From positions 262,451 through 326,450 of the forward strand of contig DATNPJ010000034.1 of the NCBI GenBank assembly GCA_036703295.1: DNA of 64,000 nucleotides, given 5' to 3'. Position 1 is the stretch's first letter; each line of letters starts with the position of its first letter. The stretch comes from Coleofasciculaceae cyanobacterium. GTDB lineage: Bacteria; Cyanobacteriota; Vampirovibrionia; Vampirovibrionales; Vampirovibrionaceae. Below the pieces are notes generated by a model that worked only from the letters and a program-made list of their open reading frames with translations, did no database searches and had not been told where the DNA came from. Below are positions 1 through 9,194 of this stretch, in pieces. The position numbers and the translations under genes are program-made.

Positions 1-1
1 G

Positions 2-727
2 GAACTGGGCGCCGTGATTGATGTGGCGCTGGATCATGGCGTCACCGAAATCCTGGTCAACGATTCGCATTGCACCATGACCAACCTGTACCTGGAGCAG
101 GTGCATCCTCGGGTGTCGCTGCTTTCCGGAAAGCCCAAGCGCTGCGCCATGTCCGCCGGGCTGGATAAAACGTTTGACGCGGCCATGTACGTGGGCTATC
201 ACGCCAAGGCAGGCACCCACAAAGGGGTTTTGTGTCATACGTTCCATTCCAAGCTGTTTGATGTGTCCGTTAATGGCGTCTCCTACGGAGAAGGCGGCAT
301 CAACGCGTTGCATGCCGGGTTGACGTACGGTGTGCCGGTGATTCTGGCCAGTGGGGATCGTGCCTTTGCCGAAGAGATTCTCCAATTGATTCCGGATCTG
401 GCGATCGTGGAAACCAAGGAAGGGTTGACCCATACCGCCGCGCGCTGCCGTCCGATGGAAGCGGTGCTGGAAGAGTATGCCGAAAAGGTCCGCCACGTCC
501 TGGAAAACCGGGCGTCCTGGAAGAAGAACATTCTCCAGGTTCCCGGCCCCTTCGCACTCCGCATGACTTTCATCAACACCCTGGCGGCAGATGCGGCTAA
601 CAGCATCCCCGGTCTGGATCGGATTGATGGCCGCACGCTGGGATATAAAACAGATACCTTCGAAACCCTCTACCAGATGTTGCAATCCTGCTACAGTATT
701 CTCTCTTATACCAGCTTTCTGGAGTAG
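2..727 (+). CDS. dppA: D-aminopeptidase DppA / peptidase M55 family (5' end truncated by window edge)
   Basis: Motifs VNDSH, GYHA, HT, NG..YGEGGINA, SGD and KE match the M55 family. The frame is open from position 2. Confidence 0.85.
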   Translation, partial: ELGAVIDVALDHGVTEILVNDSHCTMTNLYLEQVHPRVSLLSGKPKRCAMSAGLDKTFDAAMYVGYHAKAGTHKGVLCHTFHSKLFDVSVNGVSYGEGGINALHAGLTYGVPVILASGDRAFAEEILQLIPDLAIVETKEGLTHTAARCRPMEAVLEEYAEKVRHVLENRASWKKNILQVPGPFALRMTFINTLAADAANSIPGLDRIDGRTLGYKTDTFETLYQMLQSCYSILSYTSFLE

Positions 728-952
728 GTGAGCCTGGAAAGATAGGTCTGTAGCGGGCTTTACGCATTTGCTGAGTTGGATTTGTCCCTGGTGGATGGTT
801 TTTTGCCTGCTTGGGCTGGGCATTGATTGTGAATGAATGTAAATCTTTTTGAAGAATGTGGGGGGATCTGTAGCACTTCTTTACGTGGGTTTGGGTTTTA
901 TGCCAGTAACTAAAATGCACGTTACAGGGTACGGGAATTAGGATTCATCACC

Positions 953-1150
953 ATGTCGACGCCGATTAACAATCCGGGCTCGCTGCTTTTTGCCGCTGCG
1001 GCTTCTTATGCCAAGGGGCATGAGACTTCCGCGTCCAACTCCAAGGAAAAGGCAGAAAAAGAGAATGCCTTGCGGATGATTCTGTTTGGCGCCCAGAAGG
1101 CGAAAGAGCAGCAGAAGGCCAACGATCCGGAAAAAGGCTTCCTGGCTTAG
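953..1150 (+). CDS. small hypothetical protein (65 aa)
   Basis: ATG follows an AGGA-type RBS; isolated intergenic ORF; Lys/Glu/Ala-rich helical sequence ending KGFLA. Confidence 0.6.
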   Translation: MSTPINNPGSLLFAAAASYAKGHETSASNSKEKAEKENALRMILFGAQKAKEQQKANDPEKGFLA

Positions 1151-1202
1151 GATGGCCAGCCTTACAACGTATTAGATGCCAGTCTGAATAGGTTCTGAGC
1201 GC

Positions 1203-1940
1203 CTAGGGCGCTTTCCGTCCGGTTTGCAAAGAGACGGAGCCCAGCATCAGGGTTTGGGAGCTGACATTGACACACCCTGCCGACTCAAAGGCTGTTTTCA
1301 GCTGCGCGGGGGTGAGAAAATGCCGGGTGGATTCCGACAGGTACTGGTAGGCTTGCTGATCCTTGGCCAAAGTGCCGCCAATCAGGGGCATAATGCGTGA
1401 GAAATAGAAATTCATGCCGGGAATGGCCGGGGTGGGGCAGGTGTCCAGATTGACCATCCAGCCGCCGGGCTTGATCACACGGTACATTTCGGCCAGCGCC
1501 TGCGGGGTATCCGTCACGTTCCGCAGGCCAAAGCTGATGATGGCCCCATCGAACGTCTTGTCCGGGTAGGGCAGAGCCAGGGCGTCCCCTTGGGTGAAAT
1601 TTACGTTGGGCTGGCCTTGAAAGCGCTGCCGGGCGATGGTCAGCATGTTTCCCGAGAAGTCCAGCCCCTCGATTTGCCCATGTGGGCCGACCAGCGGCTG
1701 CAAATAGCCCACCAGATCGCCGGTGCCGGTGCAGACATCCAGCACCTTGCCGCCCGGTGGTAGGTTCAGCTTGCCGCAGGCCAAGCGCTTCCATTGCTTG
1801 TGGAAACCCAGCGAGATGCAATTATTCAGGGTATCGTAAGTCCCGGCAATGCGGTCAAACATCTGCCGGACCTGAGTTGCCTTTTCAGTCTCCATCCTGG
1901 CCGGATCCGGCAGGACGGTCGATAACGCACGTTCGGTCAT
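1203..1940 (-). CDS. menG: demethylmenaquinone methyltransferase (MenG/UbiE family)
   Basis: V..MFD.IA..YD.LN..IS.G, VLDVCTGTGD SAM-binding motif, LPYPD.TFD and ISFGLRNV. Start placed at ATG 1940. Confidence 0.9.
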   Translation of the reverse strand: MTERALSTVLPDPARMETEKATQVRQMFDRIAGTYDTLNNCISLGFHKQWKRLACGKLNLPPGGKVLDVCTGTGDLVGYLQPLVGPHGQIEGLDFSGNMLTIARQRFQGQPNVNFTQGDALALPYPDKTFDGAIISFGLRNVTDTPQALAEMYRVIKPGGWMVNLDTCPTPAIPGMNFYFSRIMPLIGGTLAKDQQAYQYLSESTRHFLTPAQLKTAFESAGCVNVSSQTLMLGSVSLQTGRKAP

Positions 1941-2000
1941 GGTGGCTCTATTGTGGCACAAAGGCTCCCCGATTCGCCACCGGCCTGATGAAATGTGCGG

Positions 2001-3134
2001 CTATCGGGCGCTGAAGGGTGGGTAGCTGATTTTGGGAGGAAGCAGGGTGCCGTAGACCACCCGGTTTTTGCCCTGTTTCTTGGCCTCATAGAGGGCGGCG
2101 TCGGCTTTCTCGATGATTTCGTAGCCCTTGGCATGGTCCAGATCCAGTTGGGCCACGCCCACGCTGATGGTGATGGTCATCGGATTGTCCGGCATGCAAA
2201 AGACGGTGCGCTCCACCATGGCACGCAAACGTTCCAGGAGTTCGTAAGCGTCAATCTGTCCGGTTTCCGGCAGAATAAACGCGAACTCCTCGCCGCCGTA
2301 GCGTGCCGGGATATCCGATTCACGCACGTTCTGGATCAGCATGGCGCCCAGCTCGCGCAGGATGCGGTCCCCGGTGGGGTGGCCGTAGAAATCGTTGATC
2401 TTCTTGAAATCGTCAATGTCAAACAGCGCCAGCGAGAGGGGCTTGCGGTAGCGCTTGGCGCGGGCAATCTCGGCATCCAGTTGGTGATTGAACTGGCGGC
2501 GGTTGATGAGGCCGGTGAGCGCATCGGTGGCGGCCAGCGATTGCAGCTTGGAAACCTTGGTGGAAGTAGTACGGACCATTGAGCCGACGATGTTTCCCAG
2601 GTGGCTTAGCGTCCACATCAGCGGGATCAACATCAACAGCACTTGCATGCTGAGTGGCAGAGAGGCTGTGTTTATCGGCCCAAAGCCCAGCAGCATTGGA
2701 TAACCCAGCGGTAAAGTGATGGCGTAAAGCAGCGTGAAGGCCACCAGCATCATCCGCGCAATGCTTTTGTGACCGAGCGTTTGTGCCTGTAGCAGCACGA
2801 TGATGGAAAAGAGCAGAATGCCCAACTGGCCCGAGACAAGGTACATCAGGGCAACGAAGCCGAAACTGGTCAAGGGTGCCAGGAGGCTCAGCTTTTCCAG
2901 GGTCAATTCATCCATTTTAGGATGGCGTTTGAGCGACTTCAGGCTGGTTTCATTCAGCAGCAGGTAGCCGACGGTTATGAAGGCCATGATTCCAATGCGA
3001 ACCAGCGGCCAGACAGGGATTCCGGCCTGGAGTGAGTCCTTCAAGGAGAGTAACAGCAACGTTTCAAAGCCCAGCAAAGCGAACCCGAGGGTTCGGTTTA
3101 ATCGGAGGCCTTGTTTTAAATGTGTGTGCAGCAT
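2001..3134 (-). CDS. membrane-anchored diguanylate cyclase (GGDEF domain)
   Basis: About 6 hydrophobic N-terminal segments, then ATDALTGLINRR, DIDDFKKIND.YGH..GD, RESD I-site, RYGGEEF, AD.ALY.AK..GKN. Confidence 0.92.
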   Translation of the reverse strand: MLHTHLKQGLRLNRTLGFALLGFETLLLLSLKDSLQAGIPVWPLVRIGIMAFITVGYLLLNETSLKSLKRHPKMDELTLEKLSLLAPLTSFGFVALMYLVSGQLGILLFSIIVLLQAQTLGHKSIARMMLVAFTLLYAITLPLGYPMLLGFGPINTASLPLSMQVLLMLIPLMWTLSHLGNIVGSMVRTTSTKVSKLQSLAATDALTGLINRRQFNHQLDAEIARAKRYRKPLSLALFDIDDFKKINDFYGHPTGDRILRELGAMLIQNVRESDIPARYGGEEFAFILPETGQIDAYELLERLRAMVERTVFCMPDNPMTITISVGVAQLDLDHAKGYEIIEKADAALYEAKKQGKNRVVYGTLLPPKISYPPFSAR

Positions 3135-3164
3135 GCGCCAGCTTCCTTGTGGCTGTATGTAAGC

Positions 3165-3962
3165 CTATTTTGGCGCAGTTTTTTGGGTTGCGTCAATGGC
3201 TTCCAGTCTCCGGATCGCTTCCAATCCGATGGTGTTCCCAATTTCGACCCCTTTAGCCTTTTCGTAATAGGGCCGGGCTTCATCCAGCTTGCCCATGTTC
3301 TCCATCAACGTGCCCATGTTGAACAAGGCGCGCTGATCGTTGGGTTGGATTTTCAGTGCCTGCTCGTAGGCCGTCCGTGCTTCTTCCGCCCGTCCGGCTT
3401 TCTGCAACACGCTGCCCTTGTTGAAATAGTACTGACTGTTGCCCGGATCCAGCGTGGTCAGTTTGTCGAAAGTCTGGATGGCCTGATCAAGCTTGCCGTC
3501 AAAAGCATACGCTGTGGAAAGGCCGTTCAAGGTGTTGAGATGCTGCGGATTGATGGCCAGTGCCGTCTCAAAAGCCCCGATGGCCTTTTTGTGATCTTTC
3601 AGGGTCAGGTAGGCAAAGCCGATGTTGCTTTGAGCCTCCACCATCTTGGAATGACTGGCTAGCGCCAGTTCAAAATGCTTGATGGATTCTTTCAGCAGTT
3701 GTTTTTGTCCGGGCAGATTGCCTTTGTCCCTTTGAATCTGGGCAATCTGGAACAGCTCCACGCCCTTGTTGTATTCCACCAGCGCCTTGGCTTCTGGTGT
3801 GGCGGGCGTATCGTCGTCCTGTTTGGCTGCCGCCTGCCCGGAAACGTCGGTTTTTCCCGGCGGATTTTGCGCTTTGGCGTGCACCTCAGTGGCCGAAATT
3901 CCCATGCAGGACACGGCCAATATTAAGCTGATCGATAGATTGATTGCGGATAATCGGAACAT
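3165..3962 (-). CDS. exported tetratricopeptide-repeat (TPR) protein
   Basis: N-terminal signal-like segment and several TPR-pattern repeats (AYLTLKDHKKAIGAFETALAINP; YYFNKG.VL...GR.EEA..AYEQALKIQP). Its start overlaps the upstream stop (TAATG). Confidence 0.85.
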   Translation of the reverse strand: MFRLSAINLSISLILAVSCMGISATEVHAKAQNPPGKTDVSGQAAAKQDDDTPATPEAKALVEYNKGVELFQIAQIQRDKGNLPGQKQLLKESIKHFELALASHSKMVEAQSNIGFAYLTLKDHKKAIGAFETALAINPQHLNTLNGLSTAYAFDGKLDQAIQTFDKLTTLDPGNSQYYFNKGSVLQKAGRAEEARTAYEQALKIQPNDQRALFNMGTLMENMGKLDEARPYYEKAKGVEIGNTIGLEAIRRLEAIDATQKTAPK

Positions 3963-5308
3963 TAAACCACCTCCGTCCAGACATCGCGATTATTCAGGAT
4001 ATCACGATTCAGCTCACCCTCGCTGGAAGCGACCAAGGCCGCTACCGTGCAGCTGCTGATGACGTTGACCGCTGTTCTGCACATATCTAGCACCCGGTCG
4101 ATGGACCATATCAGAGCCATTCCACCCGCGAACAGTTCCACGTTTATATGGCCCAATGCATTCAGCACAATGGCCATGGTGATGAGGCCCGCGCTGGGAA
4201 CCCCGGCCGCCCCAATGGAGGCGATGATCGAAAACACGATGATCATGCCGATGTGATAAGGGCTGAGCGGGAGATGATAGGCCTGCGCCAGGAAAATAAC
4301 CGCGATAACCTCGAACATGGTGGTGCCGGTCTTGTTGATGGTGGCTCCGGTGGGCAGCACGAAGCTGGCAATGCGGTTGGAAACACCTGCCCGGCGCTCC
4401 ATGCAGGCAATGGTGATGGGCAGCGTGGCCGAACTGCTGGCCGTGCCGAACGCCACCATGATGGCCTCCGAGATGGCCCGGTACAGGTTCATGAAATTGA
4501 TTTTGGCCAGAACTCGCAACAAAATGGGGAAAATGACGAAGACCTGAATGAGCAGGCCGCCCAGAATGGCCACGCCGTACAGCCAAAGTTCGCTAAAGAC
4601 GTCCAGGCCGGATTTGGCCACCGTGACGAAGGCCAACGAGAAGACGCCCGGTACCGCAAAAATCATCACCCAGTCCGTCAGCTTCATGGTGGCGGAAAAC
4701 AGGGCTTCAAAGAAACTGACGATGGGCCGTCCGGCATCTCCAATGCTGGCCACGGCTCCCCCAAACAGTAGGGTGAATAGAATAACGGGCACCAGATCCG
4801 CCCGTGCCAGGGATTCCACCGGGTTACGGGGGATCATGTCGAAGAAAAGCTGCCGCAAATCCTGTGGGGTGTTTTGCAGTTGCTGAAGAATCGAGGTGGG
4901 ATCGGTTTGGGCAAACAGGCTATGGTGTAACTGGGTGCCGGGTTCCAGCATCCAGGCCAGGAAGCCACCCAGCAGGGCGCTCAAGGACATCAGGACCAGA
5001 AAATAAACCAGAACCTTGCCGCCCATGCGGCCCAACTGACGACTGTCTCCCAGTGAAGAGACCCCGACAATCAGCGAGCTGACCACCAACGGGACCACAA
5101 TCATGGTAATCAGCCGGATAAAGAGCTGTCCGACGATATCGAAGAACTGGTGAATGAAGAAGAATTGGTCCGGATCGGTGGTGCTGGGCGGGTAGGGCAG
5201 GTAGATCCCCAGCATAACCCCCAGCAGGATGGCCACCAGGATGTGCCAATGGCGTTTTGTTCCCAGCCCCAACGCAACCAGTACCAGCCAGAACGCTTTC
5301 GTTTTCAT
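3962..5308 (-). CDS. dicarboxylate/amino acid:cation symporter (DAACS, GltP/GltPh family) with atypical ion-site residues
   Basis: G.LFIRLI.MIVVPL, GTASSSATLP serine motif, LPTGATIN and DR.LDM.RT.VNV. The canonical NMDG reads NKTG and the canonical GD reads SS. Confidence 0.9.
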   Translation of the reverse strand: MKTKAFWLVLVALGLGTKRHWHILVAILLGVMLGIYLPYPPSTTDPDQFFFIHQFFDIVGQLFIRLITMIVVPLVVSSLIVGVSSLGDSRQLGRMGGKVLVYFLVLMSLSALLGGFLAWMLEPGTQLHHSLFAQTDPTSILQQLQNTPQDLRQLFFDMIPRNPVESLARADLVPVILFTLLFGGAVASIGDAGRPIVSFFEALFSATMKLTDWVMIFAVPGVFSLAFVTVAKSGLDVFSELWLYGVAILGGLLIQVFVIFPILLRVLAKINFMNLYRAISEAIMVAFGTASSSATLPITIACMERRAGVSNRIASFVLPTGATINKTGTTMFEVIAVIFLAQAYHLPLSPYHIGMIIVFSIIASIGAAGVPSAGLITMAIVLNALGHINVELFAGGMALIWSIDRVLDMCRTAVNVISSCTVAALVASSEGELNRDILNNRDVWTEVV

Positions 5309-5455
5309 TCACGGGTCCTTCAGCAAATTCAAGATTATCTTCATTATACCTGTTGACGCGGGAAGTCCTGGCTTTTCCTCATTTGAATGCTGGATACGGC
5401 AGCCGGGAATGACGGGGGTGAAAGCGCTGGGGCTTGGAAAAGACGGTTTTAATGT

Positions 5456-5980
5456 CTATCGGCGGGCGCGTTTCCTGGGGACCCATCCGCCAAAAATATC
5501 ACTGAGCCGGTCCAGGATAATGTGAATCAGCGAACCCAGCCAGATTCCCGCTCCGAGCAGCAGGAAATCGTGGAGATGCGTTTTCAGAAAAGTCAGGATG
5601 GTTTGGCGGGGAGTGTGGAGGTCGGCAGAGAGCCCCGCGGCTTGAGCCAGATAGAGATAAAGTCCGGTATAGATGGCAATCAGCACGGCGGATAAATACA
5701 GCAATCGCAGCCACGGCGCCAGAATGACCCCATGCGAAAGTCCGGAGCGGTGCTTGGCGACCCACTGGTAAGGCCACCAGATGAACCGAAACACGCCCCA
5801 TCGGTAGAATGGGCGACTGCGGGTGTCTAAATCCGGGCTGAGTAAAAAGCCGCCCACCCAAGTGCCCACCGTAATCATGGCGACTGCGGGCCAGTCCAGG
5901 TGCAAGCCCCAGCGACAAGCCATCAAAACCGGCGGCAAAAAGCCCACCGTCACCCATTCATGCGTCTTCCCGGAAGCCAT
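5456..5980 (-). CDS. DUF2227-family putative metal-binding membrane protein
   Basis: M.SG.TH start, LSPDLD, RWG..R.IWWPY...HR..LSHG, and H..LD at the C-terminus; family recalled from cyanobacteria. Confidence 0.75.
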   Translation of the reverse strand: MASGKTHEWVTVGFLPPVLMACRWGLHLDWPAVAMITVGTWVGGFLLSPDLDTRSRPFYRWGVFRFIWWPYQWVAKHRSGLSHGVILAPWLRLLYLSAVLIAIYTGLYLYLAQAAGLSADLHTPRQTILTFLKTHLHDFLLLGAGIWLGSLIHIILDRLSDIFGGWVPRKRARR

Positions 5981-6091
5981 AGGGGGTTACCGCCAGTAAG
6001 TTGTCTGCTTTATGAAGAGTCTACTTTGAAAGATAATTTTACCTTGTTATATGGTAAGGGCATTATAGGAAAGCTTGGTAAAGCAATTACT

Positions 6092-6886
6092 ATGGCGAAG
6101 GAGAAACATCACGTGAACCCTAAAAATATATCTTTTTGGAAGAGGCTCTCGGCTTCGGAATGGATTGCGCTTTTTTCGTGCATTTTGTCTCTTTCTTCCT
6201 TCTGGTTCACCTATAGCATTACAAATTTAAAAGAGATAAATGATCGGCATATAGAATTGCAACATGTCATTCAACATCTTACAGAAATTCATCGGGAGAT
6301 AGCCCTTCCCAGAGCTCGAATGAGTCCCGGCATGACTAAGTTTACACTTGATGAATACGAGTTAGAACTGGAAGTCTTTATAATGAAGGCTTACAAATTG
6401 ATAAAAGAAATTCCAAAAGAAAAATTATCACCTTCAGAAATTTTCTATGTTGGTTCTAACTTGGCAGAACGGGGAATTGAGCATATAGACAAAGCAGAAG
6501 AAATGTACATTTTGGGTCAAGATATTGCAAGTAGGGACCCTTATTACTTTCAGCAGTACGCAGAGATTTCAGTTAGTCTGGCCAAACTGTTTTATGAAAA
6601 AGGAGATATCGAAAAGGGAAAAGAGCTTTTCGAAAAAACGCTCAACAATATCTCTAACACTGCGGTAATAAACAGTCCGAGGAGAATGTTAATGCAAGGA
6701 ACAGTTTATATGTATTGGGCAAGTGCTGAGACCGAAACTGAGAGGCCAAATTGCCAAAATGTTATATTTTACTTGAATCAAGCTGAAAAAATGTTGGATT
6801 CTATAAATAAACGTTCATACTTGTTACTTGTAAATCTTTATAAGGCCAATCTAAAACAAATAGGACTTGAGTCAGATTGCCAGTAA
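6092..6886 (+). CDS. AT-rich hypothetical protein with one N-terminal TM helix and TPR-like helical repeats
   Basis: Codon usage is strongly AT-biased relative to the flanks. Likely start is ATG 6092 (MAKEKHH); hydrophobic WIALFSCILSLSSFWF; YAEISVSLAKLFYEKGDIEKGKELFEK is TPR-like. Confidence 0.6.
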   Translation: MAKEKHHVNPKNISFWKRLSASEWIALFSCILSLSSFWFTYSITNLKEINDRHIELQHVIQHLTEIHREIALPRARMSPGMTKFTLDEYELELEVFIMKAYKLIKEIPKEKLSPSEIFYVGSNLAERGIEHIDKAEEMYILGQDIASRDPYYFQQYAEISVSLAKLFYEKGDIEKGKELFEKTLNNISNTAVINSPRRMLMQGTVYMYWASAETETERPNCQNVIFYLNQAEKMLDSINKRSYLLLVNLYKANLKQIGLESDCQ

Positions 6887-7060
6887 TGTTTAATGGTACT
6901 TATCAGGCTAATTCATCTTGCTTATAAAGTAAAAGTCTCTACACTGTTCGAAGTCCAGAGTATCAAGCTCTACATACGATCATAAGATATCGCTTTGGGT
7001 ACCTTTTCGCTATAATCGGGTTCTGTCAGAATCTGGATTATCAAGCGAGGAGTGAGCGAA

Positions 7061-8605
7061 ATGGCTGCAACCGTGCAGAATCCCCAAATGCAATTCGAGA
7101 TTAAGCCCAGCAAAACCAGCGGGCAATCGCAGTTTTTGAACTATATCGGCGGCCAGTGGGTCTCGGCCAAGTCCGGCAAAACCTTCGAGAGCCGCAACCC
7201 GGCGGAGCCCAGCGATGTGATCGGGGTGTTCCCGTCTTCCGGCAAGGATGAAGTGGACGCCGCCGTGGCCGCCGCGAAAAAAGCCTTCGAGAGCTGGCGG
7301 CTCTTCCCGGCGCCCAAGCGGGGTGAGATTCTGTTCAAGGCCGGGCAGATCATGATCGAGCGCAAAGAGGAACTGGCGCGCGAAATGACCCGCGAGATGG
7401 GCAAAGTGCTGGCCGAGGCTCGTGGCGACGTGCAGGAAGTGATCGATATGACCTTCTACGCCGCCGGTGAAGGCCGCCGCATGTTCGGGGAAACCACGCC
7501 TTCCGAATTGCAGAACAAGTTTGCCATGTGCGTGCGGGTACCGTTGGGCGTGGTGGGTCTCATCACCCCCTGGAACTTCCCCATGGCCATTCCCAGCTGG
7601 AAAATCATGCCCGCCCTCATCTGCGGCAACACCTGCGTGATTAAACCGGCCACCGATACCCCGTTGCTGGCGCACCGTCTGGTGGAAATCATGGAAGAAG
7701 CCGGTCTGCCCAAAGGCGTACTGAACATCGTGCATGGTTCCGGCAGCCAGGTGGGCGAACCCCTGATGAGCCATCCGGATGTGAAGCTGATTTCCTTTAC
7801 CGGCTCCACCGATGTGGGCCGCCGGGTGAACGAGGCCTGCGCGCCCAGCTTCAAACGGGTCTCTCTGGAAATGGGCGGCAAGAACGCAGTGGTGATCATG
7901 CCGGATGCCAACCTCGATCTGGCAGTCGACGGCTGCGTCTGGGCGGCCTTCGGAACGTCTGGCCAGCGCTGTACGGCGGCCAGCCGCATCATCGTTCACA
8001 AAGACGTGCACAAGCAAGTGCGCGAAAAGCTGATTGCCCGCATCAACCAATTGAAAACCGGCTACGGACTCAATCCGGAAGTGCAAATCGGGCCGGTGGT
8101 GAACGAAAGCGCCATGAAGAAAATTCTGGAATATATTGAAATCGGCAAGAAAGAAGGCGCCGAACTGGTGACGGGTGGCGAGCGGGATACCGCAGCCGGT
8201 GCCGGCTGGTTCATCAAGCCCACGCTGTTTGATAACGTGAAGCCGAGTATGCGCATCGCCCAGGAGGAAATCTTCGGGCCGGTAACCGCGCTCATCCCGG
8301 TCGGCAGCTTCGATGAAGCCATTCAGGTGGCCAACGGCACCAACTTCGGTCTGTCGCTGGCGATTTACACCAAGGACGTGAACCGCGCGTTTACAGCCTT
8401 GCGCGATCTGGAGTCCGGTCTGGTCTACGTGAATGCGCCCACCATCGGAGCGGAAGTCCACCTGCCCTTCGGCGGTACCAAGGACACCGGTAACGGCCAC
8501 CGCGACGCCGGTCAGACCGCGCTGGAAGTCTTCTCCGAGTGGAAGGCCTGCTTCATCGACTACTCCGATAAACTCCAACGCGCCCAAATCGACACCACCG
8601 ACTAG
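7061..8605 (+). CDS. NAD(P)+-dependent aldehyde dehydrogenase
   Basis: ITPWNFP, KPA, FTGST, catalytic LEMGGKN and GQRCTA, EEIFGP. GAGGAG RBS before ATG 7061. Confidence 0.93.
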
Positions 8606-8622
8606 GCGATTCGGAACCATCA

Positions 8623-8657
8623 AAAAAGCCCCGGAAAATAATCCTCCGGGGCTTTTT
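8623..8657. terminator. bidirectional intrinsic terminator
   Basis: AAAAAGCCCCGGA / TCCGGGGCTTTTT inverted repeat between convergent genes. Confidence 0.85.
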
Positions 8658-8675
8658 AACTTCAGGATGCCGTAA

Positions 8676-9194
8676 TCAGGCGTTCCACTTGTTGAGTACA
8701 AACCGTTCCGTCTTGTCGAGCGGTTGCTGGGTTTCTTGCTCGAATTCTTGCAACCACGCGTCTTTGGCGGGATCGGTTTCTCCACGAAGGCGTTTGACCA
8801 CTTCCCTCAGCTGATTAAGATTCTTCGCACGTTCAGAAGATTTCTGGTCGTATGCCTCACCGGCTTCCTGGCTTTTGGCATGCGCGCGAATCCCGGCTTT
8901 ACCGTCCATATCCGCACCATATTGCACAAAGGCTCCGACCAGTGCCCTTGCGGCCAGAGCGATTTCCCTGGCCCGCAGGGCCTTCAGCTGGAGAGTACGG
9001 ACCAGGGAAGGCGGCTGTTTTTTCAGCTCGGCCTGGCGCTTTTCTACTTTGCGTAATTGCTCACCTGTTTTATCCACAGTGATGTCCAATTTCAGCTCGT
9101 CATAGAGCGGTTTTACTCGCTCGCGCAGTTGTTGCAGGTCCTGCATGTACTCCGGACGACCGGCAAACAGAATCGGTCGGAATGAAGTTTTCAT
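8676..9194 (-). CDS. hypothetical coiled-coil protein (172 aa)
   Basis: GAGGAG RBS upstream; charged helical sequence; converges on the terminator. Confidence 0.7.
   Translation of the reverse strand: MKTSFRPILFAGRPEYMQDLQQLRERVKPLYDELKLDITVDKTGEQLRKVEKRQAELKKQPPSLVRTLQLKALRAREIALAARALVGAFVQYGADMDGKAGIRAHAKSQEAGEAYDQKSSERAKNLNQLREVVKRLRGETDPAKDAWLQEFEQETQQPLDKTERFVLNKWNA

What the first reader, a model, noticed from the sequence alone, without database searches (positions are those of the whole stretch)
2001..5308. Transporter-TPR-diguanylate cyclase operon: possible solute-sensing c-di-GMP module
The DAACS gene stop overlaps the TPR gene start (TAATG at 3962), and the GGDEF gene begins about 30 nt further on, so co-transcription is very likely. 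The DGC has an intact GGEEF and RxxD I-site and about 6 TM helices with no recognisable sensor. The exported TPR protein could bridge the two membrane proteins. Transporters acting as co-sensors are established (DcuS/DctA). A DAACS-TPR-DGC trio is not an arrangement I recognise, and coupling of amino-acid sensing to c-di-GMP here is inference.
Basis: partly seen in the sequence, partly recalled or inferred. Interest (0 to 1): 0.62.

Follow-up and report, generated by a model that had tools for sequence, protein, structure and literature searches.

The report
Conserved transporter-TPR-diguanylate cyclase operon
A glutamate/aspartate-type transporter gene, a secreted TPR protein gene and a membrane enzyme gene that makes the signal c-di-GMP form one operon kept together across two orders of Vampirovibrio-like bacteria, which makes "transporter as sensor for c-di-GMP" a testable idea, though no interaction has been shown.

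Summary
On the minus strand lie a DAACS/SLC1 transporter (5308-3962), an exported TPR protein (3962-3165, TAATG overlap) and a 6-TM GGDEF cyclase (3134-2001, 30-nt gap) with intact GGEEF and RESD I-site.

The genome belongs to Vampirovibrionaceae. The trio is not a local accident.
- It is present in 23 of 25 family genomes, in three genera of a sister family, and in a second order of the class. Flanking genes often differ.
- One family keeps transporter-cyclase without the TPR gene.
- Two lineages keep TPR-cyclase with the transporter elsewhere.
- One genome keeps transporter-TPR only.

The cyclase's membrane domain is a narrow family: 24 clusters among 1.84 billion proteins, with GGDEF as the only Pfam domain in the ten tested. 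A profile of it recognises every transporter-linked cyclase, even in the other order. It scores at noise level in the two lineages where the transporter moved away, although their catalytic domains are still orthologous.

This favours functional coupling between transporter and cyclase through the membrane domain, with the TPR protein as a dispensable periplasmic accessory rather than a bridge. Interaction, ligand and signal direction remain inference. No RNA data could be obtained. I rate it a new variant of known co-sensor systems.

The parts
5343..5348 (-). Perfect TATAAT -10 box, 35 nt upstream of the DAACS start; candidate operon promoter
   Evidence: It is the only minus-strand TATAAT between 1 and 6000. 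A perfect TATAAT within about 100 nt upstream of the DAACS start recurs in 14 of 15 family loci. The sigma-70 scan missed it because there is no good -35 box.
3962..5308 (-). DAACS/SLC1 transporter, paralogue B (448 aa)
   Evidence: PF00375 E 1e-107. Aligns over its length to GltPh and to aspartate transporter structures. Substrate residues are kept: SSATLP, GVPSAG, D408, R411, T412, N415. The Na+ site residues are lost.
4322..4336 (-). NKTGT in place of the NMDGT motif (Met to Lys, Asp to Thr)
   Evidence: Read from the sequence, mapped on PDB 9bgz, conserved as NKT[GA]T in families f1 and f3.
3165..3962 (-). Exported TPR protein (265 aa): signal peptide, about 25-aa low-complexity linker, 11 helices (5.5 TPRs, residues 56-262)
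   Evidence: Pfam TPR families. AF2 pLDDT 87.3. Only generic TPR superhelix matches in PDB. A signal-like N-terminus in 24 of 27 orthologues, with no conserved Cys.
2001..3134 (-). Membrane diguanylate cyclase (377 aa): 6-TM domain plus GGDEF
   Evidence: PF00990 E 2e-46. AF2 model. 47 invariant GGDEF-domain columns in 37 orthologues.
2526..3134 (-). Lineage-specific 6-TM input domain (residues 1-203), not in Pfam
   Evidence: No Pfam hit at E 10. Unique in the genome. Only 24 clusters in 1.84 billion representatives; the full-length ones are about 360-413 aa, and GGDEF was the only Pfam domain in the 10 of 10 tested.
2283..2297 (-). GGEEF active-site motif
   Evidence: Sequence. GGEEF in all orthologues listed except GGEEY in genus g25 and GGEEL in L059.
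2313..2324 (-). RESD inhibitory (I) site, five residues before GGEEF
   Evidence: Sequence. R271 and D274 are invariant.
1203..1961 (-). ubiE/menG methyltransferase, 39 nt after the cyclase; probably a fourth gene of the transcript in this family, not part of the conserved module
   Evidence: PF01209 E 1e-57, NF001244 above cut-off. It follows the cyclase in most family f1 loci but not in G001, G008, G010, G040, or families f2 and f4.

Best explanation
The three genes are one operon that encodes a membrane signalling unit, inherited vertically since before Vampirovibrionales split from a second order of Vampirovibrionia.

The cyclase is an active, product-inhibited GGDEF enzyme. Its only input element is a lineage-specific 6-TM domain, joined to the catalytic domain by one continuous helix. 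It has almost no periplasmic surface, so it must read a signal in or at the membrane.

The most likely signal source is the adjacent SLC1 paralogue B. This protein still has the residues that bind an acidic amino acid (Asp/Glu), but in this lineage it has dismantled its Na+ sites. Its occupancy or elevator state would be passed to the cyclase by contact between membrane domains, so c-di-GMP synthesis would follow external Asp/Glu supply. The logic is that of DctA with DcuS or DctS.

The exported TPR protein would be a periplasmic accessory that tunes or scaffolds the unit. It is not an obligatory bridge.

Shown: gene order, junctions, conservation, motif integrity, predicted topology, and the association between transporter linkage and membrane-domain identity.

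Inferred: physical contact, ligand, direction and sign of control.
For: 1. Operon structure. There is a 1-nt overlap and a 30-nt gap, with Shine-Dalgarno sequences at both junctions. Gaps run from -4 to about 65 nt in most orthologous loci, including ATGA overlaps of TPR and cyclase. A TATAAT is conserved upstream of the DAACS gene.

2. The trio occurs in 23 of 25 family f1 genomes, in G039, G040 and G144 of family f3, and in G041 and G047 of family f4, which is another order. Two further metagenome contigs carry it. Flanks are unrelated in G001, G008, G010, G040, L059 and f4.

3. All pairwise sub-arrangements exist.
- f2 has DAACS-cyclase with a 31-36 nt gap and no TPR gene.
- Genera g19 and g25 have TPR-cyclase.
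- G005 has DAACS-TPR only.

4. The DAACS-B tree follows taxonomy, so the cluster is vertically inherited.

5. An HMM of the f1 membrane domain scores 104-124 bits in f2, 35-41 in the f3 trios and 25-40 in f4. In g19 and g25 it scores -7 to 0, against a shuffled maximum of 7.2. The GGDEF domains of g19 and g25 are still best hits to this cyclase. The g19 and g25 membrane domains are also unrelated to each other, which makes two independent events.

6. The membrane domain has no other partner. GGDEF was the only Pfam domain in the ten library hits tested, and the domain is confined to 24 clusters.

7. Every genome also has a canonical GltP-like paralogue A, which leaves B free to specialise.

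8. Precedents exist. ImcA is a 6-TM GGDEF enzyme controlled through TM contacts by a separate membrane sensor. DctS/DctA/DctB form a tripartite sensor unit. Sd-Amt1 is a transporter fold repurposed as the input of a cyclase.
Against: - No interaction, transcript or activity data exist.
- Much of the family-level synteny is general collinearity: DUF2227, ALDH, ubiE and the M55 peptidase gene are conserved there too.
- The membrane-domain association rests on two independent lineages only.
- The trio predates the loss of the Na+ sites, because f4 keeps NMDGT and Asp-405. The odd transporter chemistry is therefore not needed for the linkage.
- SLC1 proteins are trimers and GGDEF enzymes act as dimers, so the stoichiometry is not obvious.
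- TPR-cyclase survives without the transporter in g19 and g25, so the cyclase can work with other inputs.
- The extracellular loop 3-4 of the transporter shows no length pattern tied to TPR presence.
Confidence: 0.45

Rival explanations
1. Co-expression only. The genes share an operon because amino-acid uptake and c-di-GMP production are needed at the same time, for example on prey contact. The proteins do not touch. The 6-TM domain senses a membrane or envelope cue on its own, or merely anchors and dimerises the enzyme.
For: Many membrane GGDEF enzymes have TM-only N-termini with no known partner. ubiE, which has no obvious functional link, also rides in the same transcript in this family. 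The cyclase persists without the transporter in g19 and g25.
Against: Adjacency is kept over two orders while the flanks turn over. The membrane domain is conserved only where the transporter is adjacent. This is not expected if the domain worked alone.
Confidence: 0.25
2. The TPR-cyclase pair is the real unit. An exported TPR protein reports an envelope or periplasmic state to the cyclase, as YfiR does for YfiN or NspS for MbaA. The transporter would be a long-standing passenger.
For: Every TPR orthologue with enough downstream sequence, except in G005, is followed by the cyclase gene, often with a 4-nt overlap. The pair survives without the transporter in g19 and g25.
Against: Family f2 keeps transporter-cyclase and has lost the TPR gene. 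The cyclase's periplasmic loops are about 5, 2 and 17 residues, which leaves little to bind. G005 keeps transporter-TPR without a cyclase.
Confidence: 0.12
3. Reverse direction. The cyclase, through locally made c-di-GMP or by direct contact, together with the TPR protein regulates uptake by the transporter. The transporter would be the output and not the input.
For: Local c-di-GMP signalling between a cyclase and a neighbouring membrane effector is established elsewhere, for example in exopolysaccharide synthase systems listed. The linkage data do not show direction.
Against: No c-di-GMP-binding motif or domain is known in SLC1 proteins, and none was found here; the transporter is a single PF00375 domain. 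The cyclase would then lack any input.
Confidence: 0.1
4. The linkage is neutral. It reflects slow genome rearrangement in this clade and has no functional meaning.
For: Strong collinearity within the family.
Against: The flanks differ in at least eight lineages while the core stays. The cluster also spans two orders.
Confidence: 0.03

Closest known systems
DctS/DctA/DctB tripartite sensor unit of Bacillus subtilis, and DcuS/DctA of E. coli (Graf et al. 2014, as cited in PMC6978683)
   Same: A DAACS-family transporter acts as co-sensor for a membrane signalling enzyme. In B. subtilis an extracytoplasmic accessory protein is a third partner. That gives the same three roles: transporter, secreted accessory, membrane transducer.
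   Different: The output there is a histidine kinase with its own periplasmic ligand-binding domain. Here the output is a GGDEF cyclase with no periplasmic domain. The accessory is a solute-binding protein there and a TPR protein here. No interaction has been shown here.
ImcA (PA1851) with IsmP of Pseudomonas aeruginosa (PMC10904736; PDB 8wcn)
   Same: A cyclase of about 380 aa made of a 6-TM domain plus GGDEF with no sensor of its own. Its activity is set by a separate membrane protein, and the TM regions are needed for that interaction. It gives a whole-length structural match.
   Different: No sequence similarity between the membrane domains. The partner there is a CHASE4 iron sensor and not a transporter. 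The paper gives no indication that the genes are adjacent.
RcbAB of Vibrio vulnificus (PMC12282931)
   Same: A bicistronic operon of a TPR protein and a diguanylate cyclase. The TPR protein controls cyclase activity.
   Different: Both Rcb proteins are polar-localised, and no export is described. The cyclase itself carries a TPR domain that pairs with RcbA. Here the TPR protein has a signal peptide and the cyclase has no TPR.
Sd-Amt1 (Amt-HAMP-GGDEF, PMC11152129) and SLC5-STAC sensor kinases CrbS/CbrA (PMC5715377)
   Same: A transporter fold repurposed as the input module of a signalling enzyme. In Sd-Amt1 the enzyme is a diguanylate cyclase, and a trimeric sensor feeds a dimeric output.
   Different: Those are single fused polypeptides of other transporter families. 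Here the parts are separate genes and the transporter is SLC1.
YfiBNR (TpbB) system
   Same: A three-gene operon in which a periplasmic protein controls a membrane cyclase.
   Different: YfiN has a periplasmic PAS domain and a HAMP domain, YfiR and YfiB are not TPR proteins, and there is no transporter. None of these domains is present here.

Membership tests
DAACS / SLC1 (Pfam SDF, PF00375) | Full-length match to the family profile and to solved members | tested here: met
   PF00375 E 1e-107, profile positions 3-386 of 387. Aligns to GltPh over query residues 23-438 and to 9bgz over 54-437.
DAACS / SLC1 (Pfam SDF, PF00375) | Acidic amino-acid binding residues (HP1 serines, HP2 GVPxAG, and Asp394, Arg397, Thr398, Asn401 of GltPh) | tested here: met
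   SSATLP, GVPSAG and LDMCRTAVN are conserved in all paralogue B orthologues.
Na+-coupled GltPh/EAAT-type transporters | Na+ site residues: NMDGT with Asp312, Asp405, Thr92/Ser93 | tested here: not met
   The window has NKTGT, Ser at position 405 and Leu/Met at 92/93. Family f2 has NMNGT with Asp405 kept. Families f4 and f7 are canonical.
Active GGDEF diguanylate cyclases | GG[DE]EF active site and conserved catalytic-domain residues | tested here: met
   GGEEF is present. D239, D241, N247, D256, K352 and others are invariant in 37 sequences. PF00990 E 2e-46 and TIGR00254 above cut-off. Enzyme activity was not measured.
Active GGDEF diguanylate cyclases | RxxD inhibitory site five residues upstream of GGDEF | tested here: met
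   RESD at residues 271-274. R271 and D274 are invariant.
Transporter co-sensor systems (DcuS/DctA, DctS/DctA/DctB) | Physical interaction of transporter and sensor, and transporter-dependent signalling | not testable with these tools
   No multimer prediction and no experiments. The only indirect support comes from linkage and from the membrane-domain pattern.
Transporter co-sensor systems (DcuS/DctA, DctS/DctA/DctB) | The sensor is a histidine kinase with a periplasmic PAS/Cache domain | tested here: not met
   The only domain is GGDEF, and the periplasmic loops are at most 17 residues.
YfiBNR | YfiR-type periplasmic repressor, OmpA-like YfiB, PAS-HAMP-GGDEF YfiN | tested here: not met
   None of these domains was found. 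The NCBIfam DgcN/YfiN match covers the GGDEF part only and is below cut-off.
RcbAB | TPR domain on the cyclase itself; polar-localised TPR partner with no export described | tested here: not met
   The cyclase has no TPR. The TPR protein carries a signal peptide.
ImcA-type 6-TM GGDEF | Six-TM domain plus GGDEF architecture | tested here: met
   AF2 model with six TM helices. Whole-length Foldseek alignment to 8wcn.
ImcA-type 6-TM GGDEF | Homology of the membrane domain | tested here: not met
   phmmer of residues 1-200 against PDB sequences finds no ImcA match at E 10.

The most novel reading that the evidence does not exclude
SLC1 paralogue B is a dedicated receptor or transceptor. It has given up Na+ coupling by replacing a bound cation with a tethered Lys, and it gates a partner-specific 6-TM diguanylate cyclase by intramembrane contact. 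In predatory Vampirovibrio this would convert Asp/Glu leaking from algal prey into a c-di-GMP signal for attachment or attack. It would be the first SLC1 protein serving as input to c-di-GMP signalling. The membrane domain would then be a portable 'transporter-reading' module that is discarded when the partner is lost.
Probability: 0.22. Interest if true: 0.8.

Novelty: new variant of a known kind. Interest (0 to 1): 0.6.

Why it matters
Most diguanylate cyclases have unknown inputs, and membrane-only N-termini are the least understood. This is a compact, strongly conserved case where comparative genomics names a candidate input: a specific SLC1 transporter paralogue. It also offers a natural control, because two lineages lost the linkage and their membrane domain is no longer recognisable. 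If confirmed, the transporter co-sensor principle known for histidine kinases would extend to c-di-GMP signalling. Nutrient perception would then be linked to lifestyle switching in the non-photosynthetic, partly predatory relatives of cyanobacteria. The stepwise loss of the Na+ sites in the same transporter (NMDGT, then NMNGT, then NKTGT) is a separate question for transporter mechanism.

Tried and rejected
- Riboswitch or leader RNA: nothing reaches the Rfam thresholds in 1-9000.
- Known sensor domain in the cyclase N-terminus: none in Pfam at E 10, and none by sequence in PDB.
- Structure searches: the TPR model matches only generic TPR superhelices such as consensus TPR, OGT and MamA. The cyclase model mainly matches GGDEF domains.
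- Lipoprotein idea for the TPR protein: rejected, because the Cys is not conserved.
- Alternative transporter upstream of TPR in genera g19 and g25: rejected. The neighbours are LptF/G or a CrtC-like lipocalin.
- TPR homologues in families f5 and f10 (E about 1e-30): they are not next to a DAACS or GGDEF gene. They are therefore not part of the module, and they make the orthology of the f4 TPR gene rest partly on its position.
- Gut lineage f7: it has the transporter alone.
- Length of transporter loop 3-4 against TPR presence: no pattern.
- Word-based protein search with the membrane domain reached only close relatives.
- Literature: no paper combines Vampirovibrio with diguanylate cyclase. 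The three papers that mention both Melainabacteria and c-di-GMP concern other subjects by title and abstract; I did not open them. Nothing was found on a glutamate transporter-cyclase operon.
Full report
**Observation.** Three genes lie head to tail on the minus strand.
- A 448-aa DAACS/SLC1 transporter at 5308..3962 (PF00375, E 1e-107).
- A 265-aa TPR protein at 3962..3165.
- A 377-aa GGDEF protein at 3134..2001 (PF00990, E 2e-46).

The transporter stop and the TPR start share one base (TAATG), and a GGAGG lies 8 nt upstream. The TPR-cyclase gap is 30 nt, with AAGGAAG before the ATG. GGEEF (2283-2297) and RESD (2313-2324), five residues upstream, are intact. One addition: ubiE/menG follows the cyclase after 39 nt and probably belongs to the same transcript in this family.

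**Anatomy of the proteins.**
- Cyclase. An AlphaFold2 model built on 37 orthologues (pLDDT 85.9) shows six TM helices. The periplasmic loops are about 5, 2 and 17 residues. TM6 continues as one helix (161-202) straight into the GGDEF domain.
- Cyclase input domain. The 6-TM domain has no Pfam match even at E 10 and no sequence match in PDB.
- TPR protein. The model (pLDDT 87.3) has a disordered signal peptide and linker (1-55) followed by 11 helices. It resembles only generic TPR superhelices. A signal-like N-terminus is present in 24 of 27 orthologues, and no Cys is conserved. The protein is thus exported and soluble, not a lipoprotein.

**Organism.** Related loci come from Vampirovibrio chlorellavorus and from Vampirovibrionales MAGs. 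The window genome (3.25 Mb, 61 contigs) is another genus of the same family, here called f1.

**Synteny.** The TPR orthologue is found in all 24 other genomes of the family.
- Family f1. The order transporter-TPR-cyclase is verified in 23 of 25 genomes. G012 is cut by a contig end. G005 has transporter-TPR followed by convergent lpdA/E2 genes, and no cyclase orthologue anywhere in its assembly.
- Collinearity caveat. Much of this is family collinearity, because DUF2227, ALDH, ubiE and the M55 peptidase gene are conserved around it. In G001, G008 and G010, however, the flanks differ and only the trio remains.
- Sister family f3. G039, G040 and G144 keep the trio. Genera g19 and g25 keep TPR-cyclase, preceded by unrelated genes (LptF/G or a CrtC-like lipocalin). 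Their transporter paralogue sits elsewhere, next to miaA and flagellar rod genes or to gmk. Genera g23 and g26 have the transporter alone.
- Family f2. The transporter is followed after 31-36 nt by the orthologous cyclase, with no TPR gene.
- A second order (family f4). The full trio is present again. The middle gene matches PF00515 at E 2e-36, and amino-acid permease genes lie next to the cluster. Two independent metagenome contigs with yet other flanks show the same.
- Gut-type family f7. The transporter is alone.
- Vertical inheritance. The transporter tree follows taxonomy: f4, f7, then f2 as sister to f1 plus f3. The cluster is therefore old and vertically inherited, with partial losses. 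After each verified partial loss (f2, g19/g25, G005), two of the three genes remain adjacent.
- Junctions. Gaps are short almost everywhere, with ATGA overlaps of TPR and cyclase in several lineages.
- Promoter. A perfect TATAAT lies 35 nt upstream of the transporter start codon here, and a perfect TATAAT within about 100 nt of that start occurs in 14 of 15 family loci. It is the only minus-strand TATAAT between positions 1 and 6000. No terminator-like site falls in a junction.

**The membrane domain tracks the transporter.** I built a profile from the 6-TM domains of family f1.

| Lineage | Arrangement | Score (bits) |
|---|---|---|
| f2 | transporter-cyclase | 104-124 |
| f3 (G039, G040, G144) | trio | 35-41 |
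| f4 and f4-like contigs | trio | 25-40 |
| g19, g25 | TPR-cyclase only | -7 to 0 |
| shuffled controls | none | maximum 7.2 |

- The GGDEF domains of g19 and g25 still have this window's cyclase as their clear best hit in the genome: 155-182 bits against 125-139 for the next paralogue.
- The g19 and g25 membrane domains are also unrelated to each other, so this happened twice.
- The domain is unique in this genome and does not occur next to the relocated transporters.
- In a library of 1.84 billion representative proteins, only 24 clusters carry it. The full-length ones are about 360-413 aa. In all ten I tested, GGDEF is the only Pfam domain.

The input domain of the cyclase is thus conserved exactly where the transporter is its neighbour. 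This is what a transporter-reading domain would look like. It rests on only two independent losses.

**The transporter.** Every genome of the order sampled has two SDF genes, apart from incomplete or fragmented assemblies. One is a GltP-like paralogue A (NLDGS, NLLGN). The other is paralogue B, the one in the operon.
- The residues that bind an acidic amino acid are kept.
- The Na+ sites are gone: NMDGT has become NKTGT, the Asp405 equivalent is Ser, and Thr92/Ser93 are Leu/Met.

The change is stepwise across lineages.

| Lineage | NMDGT motif | Asp405 equivalent |
|---|---|---|
| f7, f4 | NMDGT (canonical) | Asp |
| f2 | NMNGT | Asp |
| f1, f3 | NKT[GA]T | Ser |

Two conclusions follow. The odd chemistry is younger than the trio, so it is not the reason for the linkage. 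And paralogue B is not an ordinary Na+-coupled carrier in this genome. Whether it still transports cannot be told from sequence.

**Mechanism.** The cyclase has no sensor of its own and almost no periplasmic surface, so its signal must come through the membrane domain.
- Best reading (confidence 0.45): paralogue B acts as co-sensor, and its ligand or conformational state reaches the cyclase by contact in the membrane. The exported TPR protein is an accessory on the periplasmic side, more likely touching the transporter or an envelope component than the cyclase.
- Rivals: co-expression without contact (0.25), TPR-cyclase as the true unit with the transporter as passenger (0.12), the reverse direction of control (0.10), and neutral linkage (0.03).

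**Comparison with known systems.**
- The closest logic is the DctS/DctA/DctB tripartite sensor of B. subtilis and DcuS/DctA of E. coli. Their outputs are kinases with periplasmic sensor domains.
- The closest architecture for the cyclase is ImcA of P. aeruginosa. It is a 6-TM GGDEF enzyme controlled through TM contacts by the separate sensor IsmP. Its membrane domain is not detectably homologous.
- RcbAB shows that a TPR protein can control a cyclase from the same operon, but the Rcb proteins are polar-localised with no export described, and the pairing is TPR to TPR.
- Sd-Amt1 shows a transporter fold serving as cyclase input, as a single fused protein.

I found no paper describing an SLC1-TPR-GGDEF module. 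Nothing combines Vampirovibrio with diguanylate cyclase, and the three Melainabacteria/c-di-GMP hits concern other subjects by title and abstract; I did not open them.

**Verdict.**
- Supported: a real, old, probably co-transcribed module with good comparative evidence for functional coupling of transporter and cyclase.
- Unproven: solute sensing.
- Unlikely: bridging by the TPR protein.

I rate it a new variant of a known kind, with interest 0.6.

**Limits.** There is no multimer model. The second order is unnamed. Orthology of the f4 TPR gene rests partly on position, because unlinked TPR homologues in family f5 score similarly.

Noticed in passing
window 5981-7051: The 1.07-kb stretch between the DUF2227 and aldehyde dehydrogenase genes carries an orphan ORF (5900-6886, no Pfam hit). 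It is absent in relatives, where the two genes are only about 130-160 nt apart.
   Followed up: partly
window 4322-4336 and 4052-4054; L083-L106: The Na+ sites of SLC1 paralogue B are dismantled stepwise across lineages. Families f7 and f4 have NMDGT with Asp405. Family f2 has NMNGT with Asp405. Families f1 and f3 have NKT[GA]T with Ser405 and Leu/Met at 92/93. All have Glu (Gln in f7) at the position of the EAAT proton-acceptor residue. The identity of that EAAT residue is from my own knowledge.
   Followed up: partly
G000:C3:176730-177914 (L089:4632-5939): Every Vampirovibrionales genome sampled, apart from incomplete or fragmented assemblies, has two SDF genes. The second is a GltP-like paralogue (NLDGS, NLLGN) that is only 32% identical to the operon copy.
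   Followed up: partly
L092, L093 (G032, G036; genus g23): Where both TPR and cyclase are missing from the neighbourhood, paralogue B sits on a very long branch (1.78). It has a one-residue deletion in the NMDGT motif (-KLATA) and altered HP1 (YGATLP). This suggests a changed constraint after loss of the partners.
   Followed up: no
L095:2084-3673, L096:328-3603, L130:1-3073: In the second order (family f4) the trio is flanked by one or two divergently oriented APC-family amino-acid permease genes. A small ORF of 117-128 aa follows the cyclase.
   Followed up: no
L052 (G005:C62): One family genome has lost the cyclase gene from the operon. Transporter-TPR is followed by convergent lpdA and E2 genes. 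No orthologue was found elsewhere in the assembly, which is 91% complete.
   Followed up: partly
window 8615-8695 (-): Several sub-threshold Rfam matches pile up on one short hairpin-like element: NsiR1 at E 0.054, His_leader and STnc310. It overlaps the start codon of the 172-aa ORF (8676-9194, minus strand) and extends into the gap toward the convergent aldehyde dehydrogenase gene, which ends at 8605. It may be a shared terminator, but nothing here tests that.
   Followed up: no
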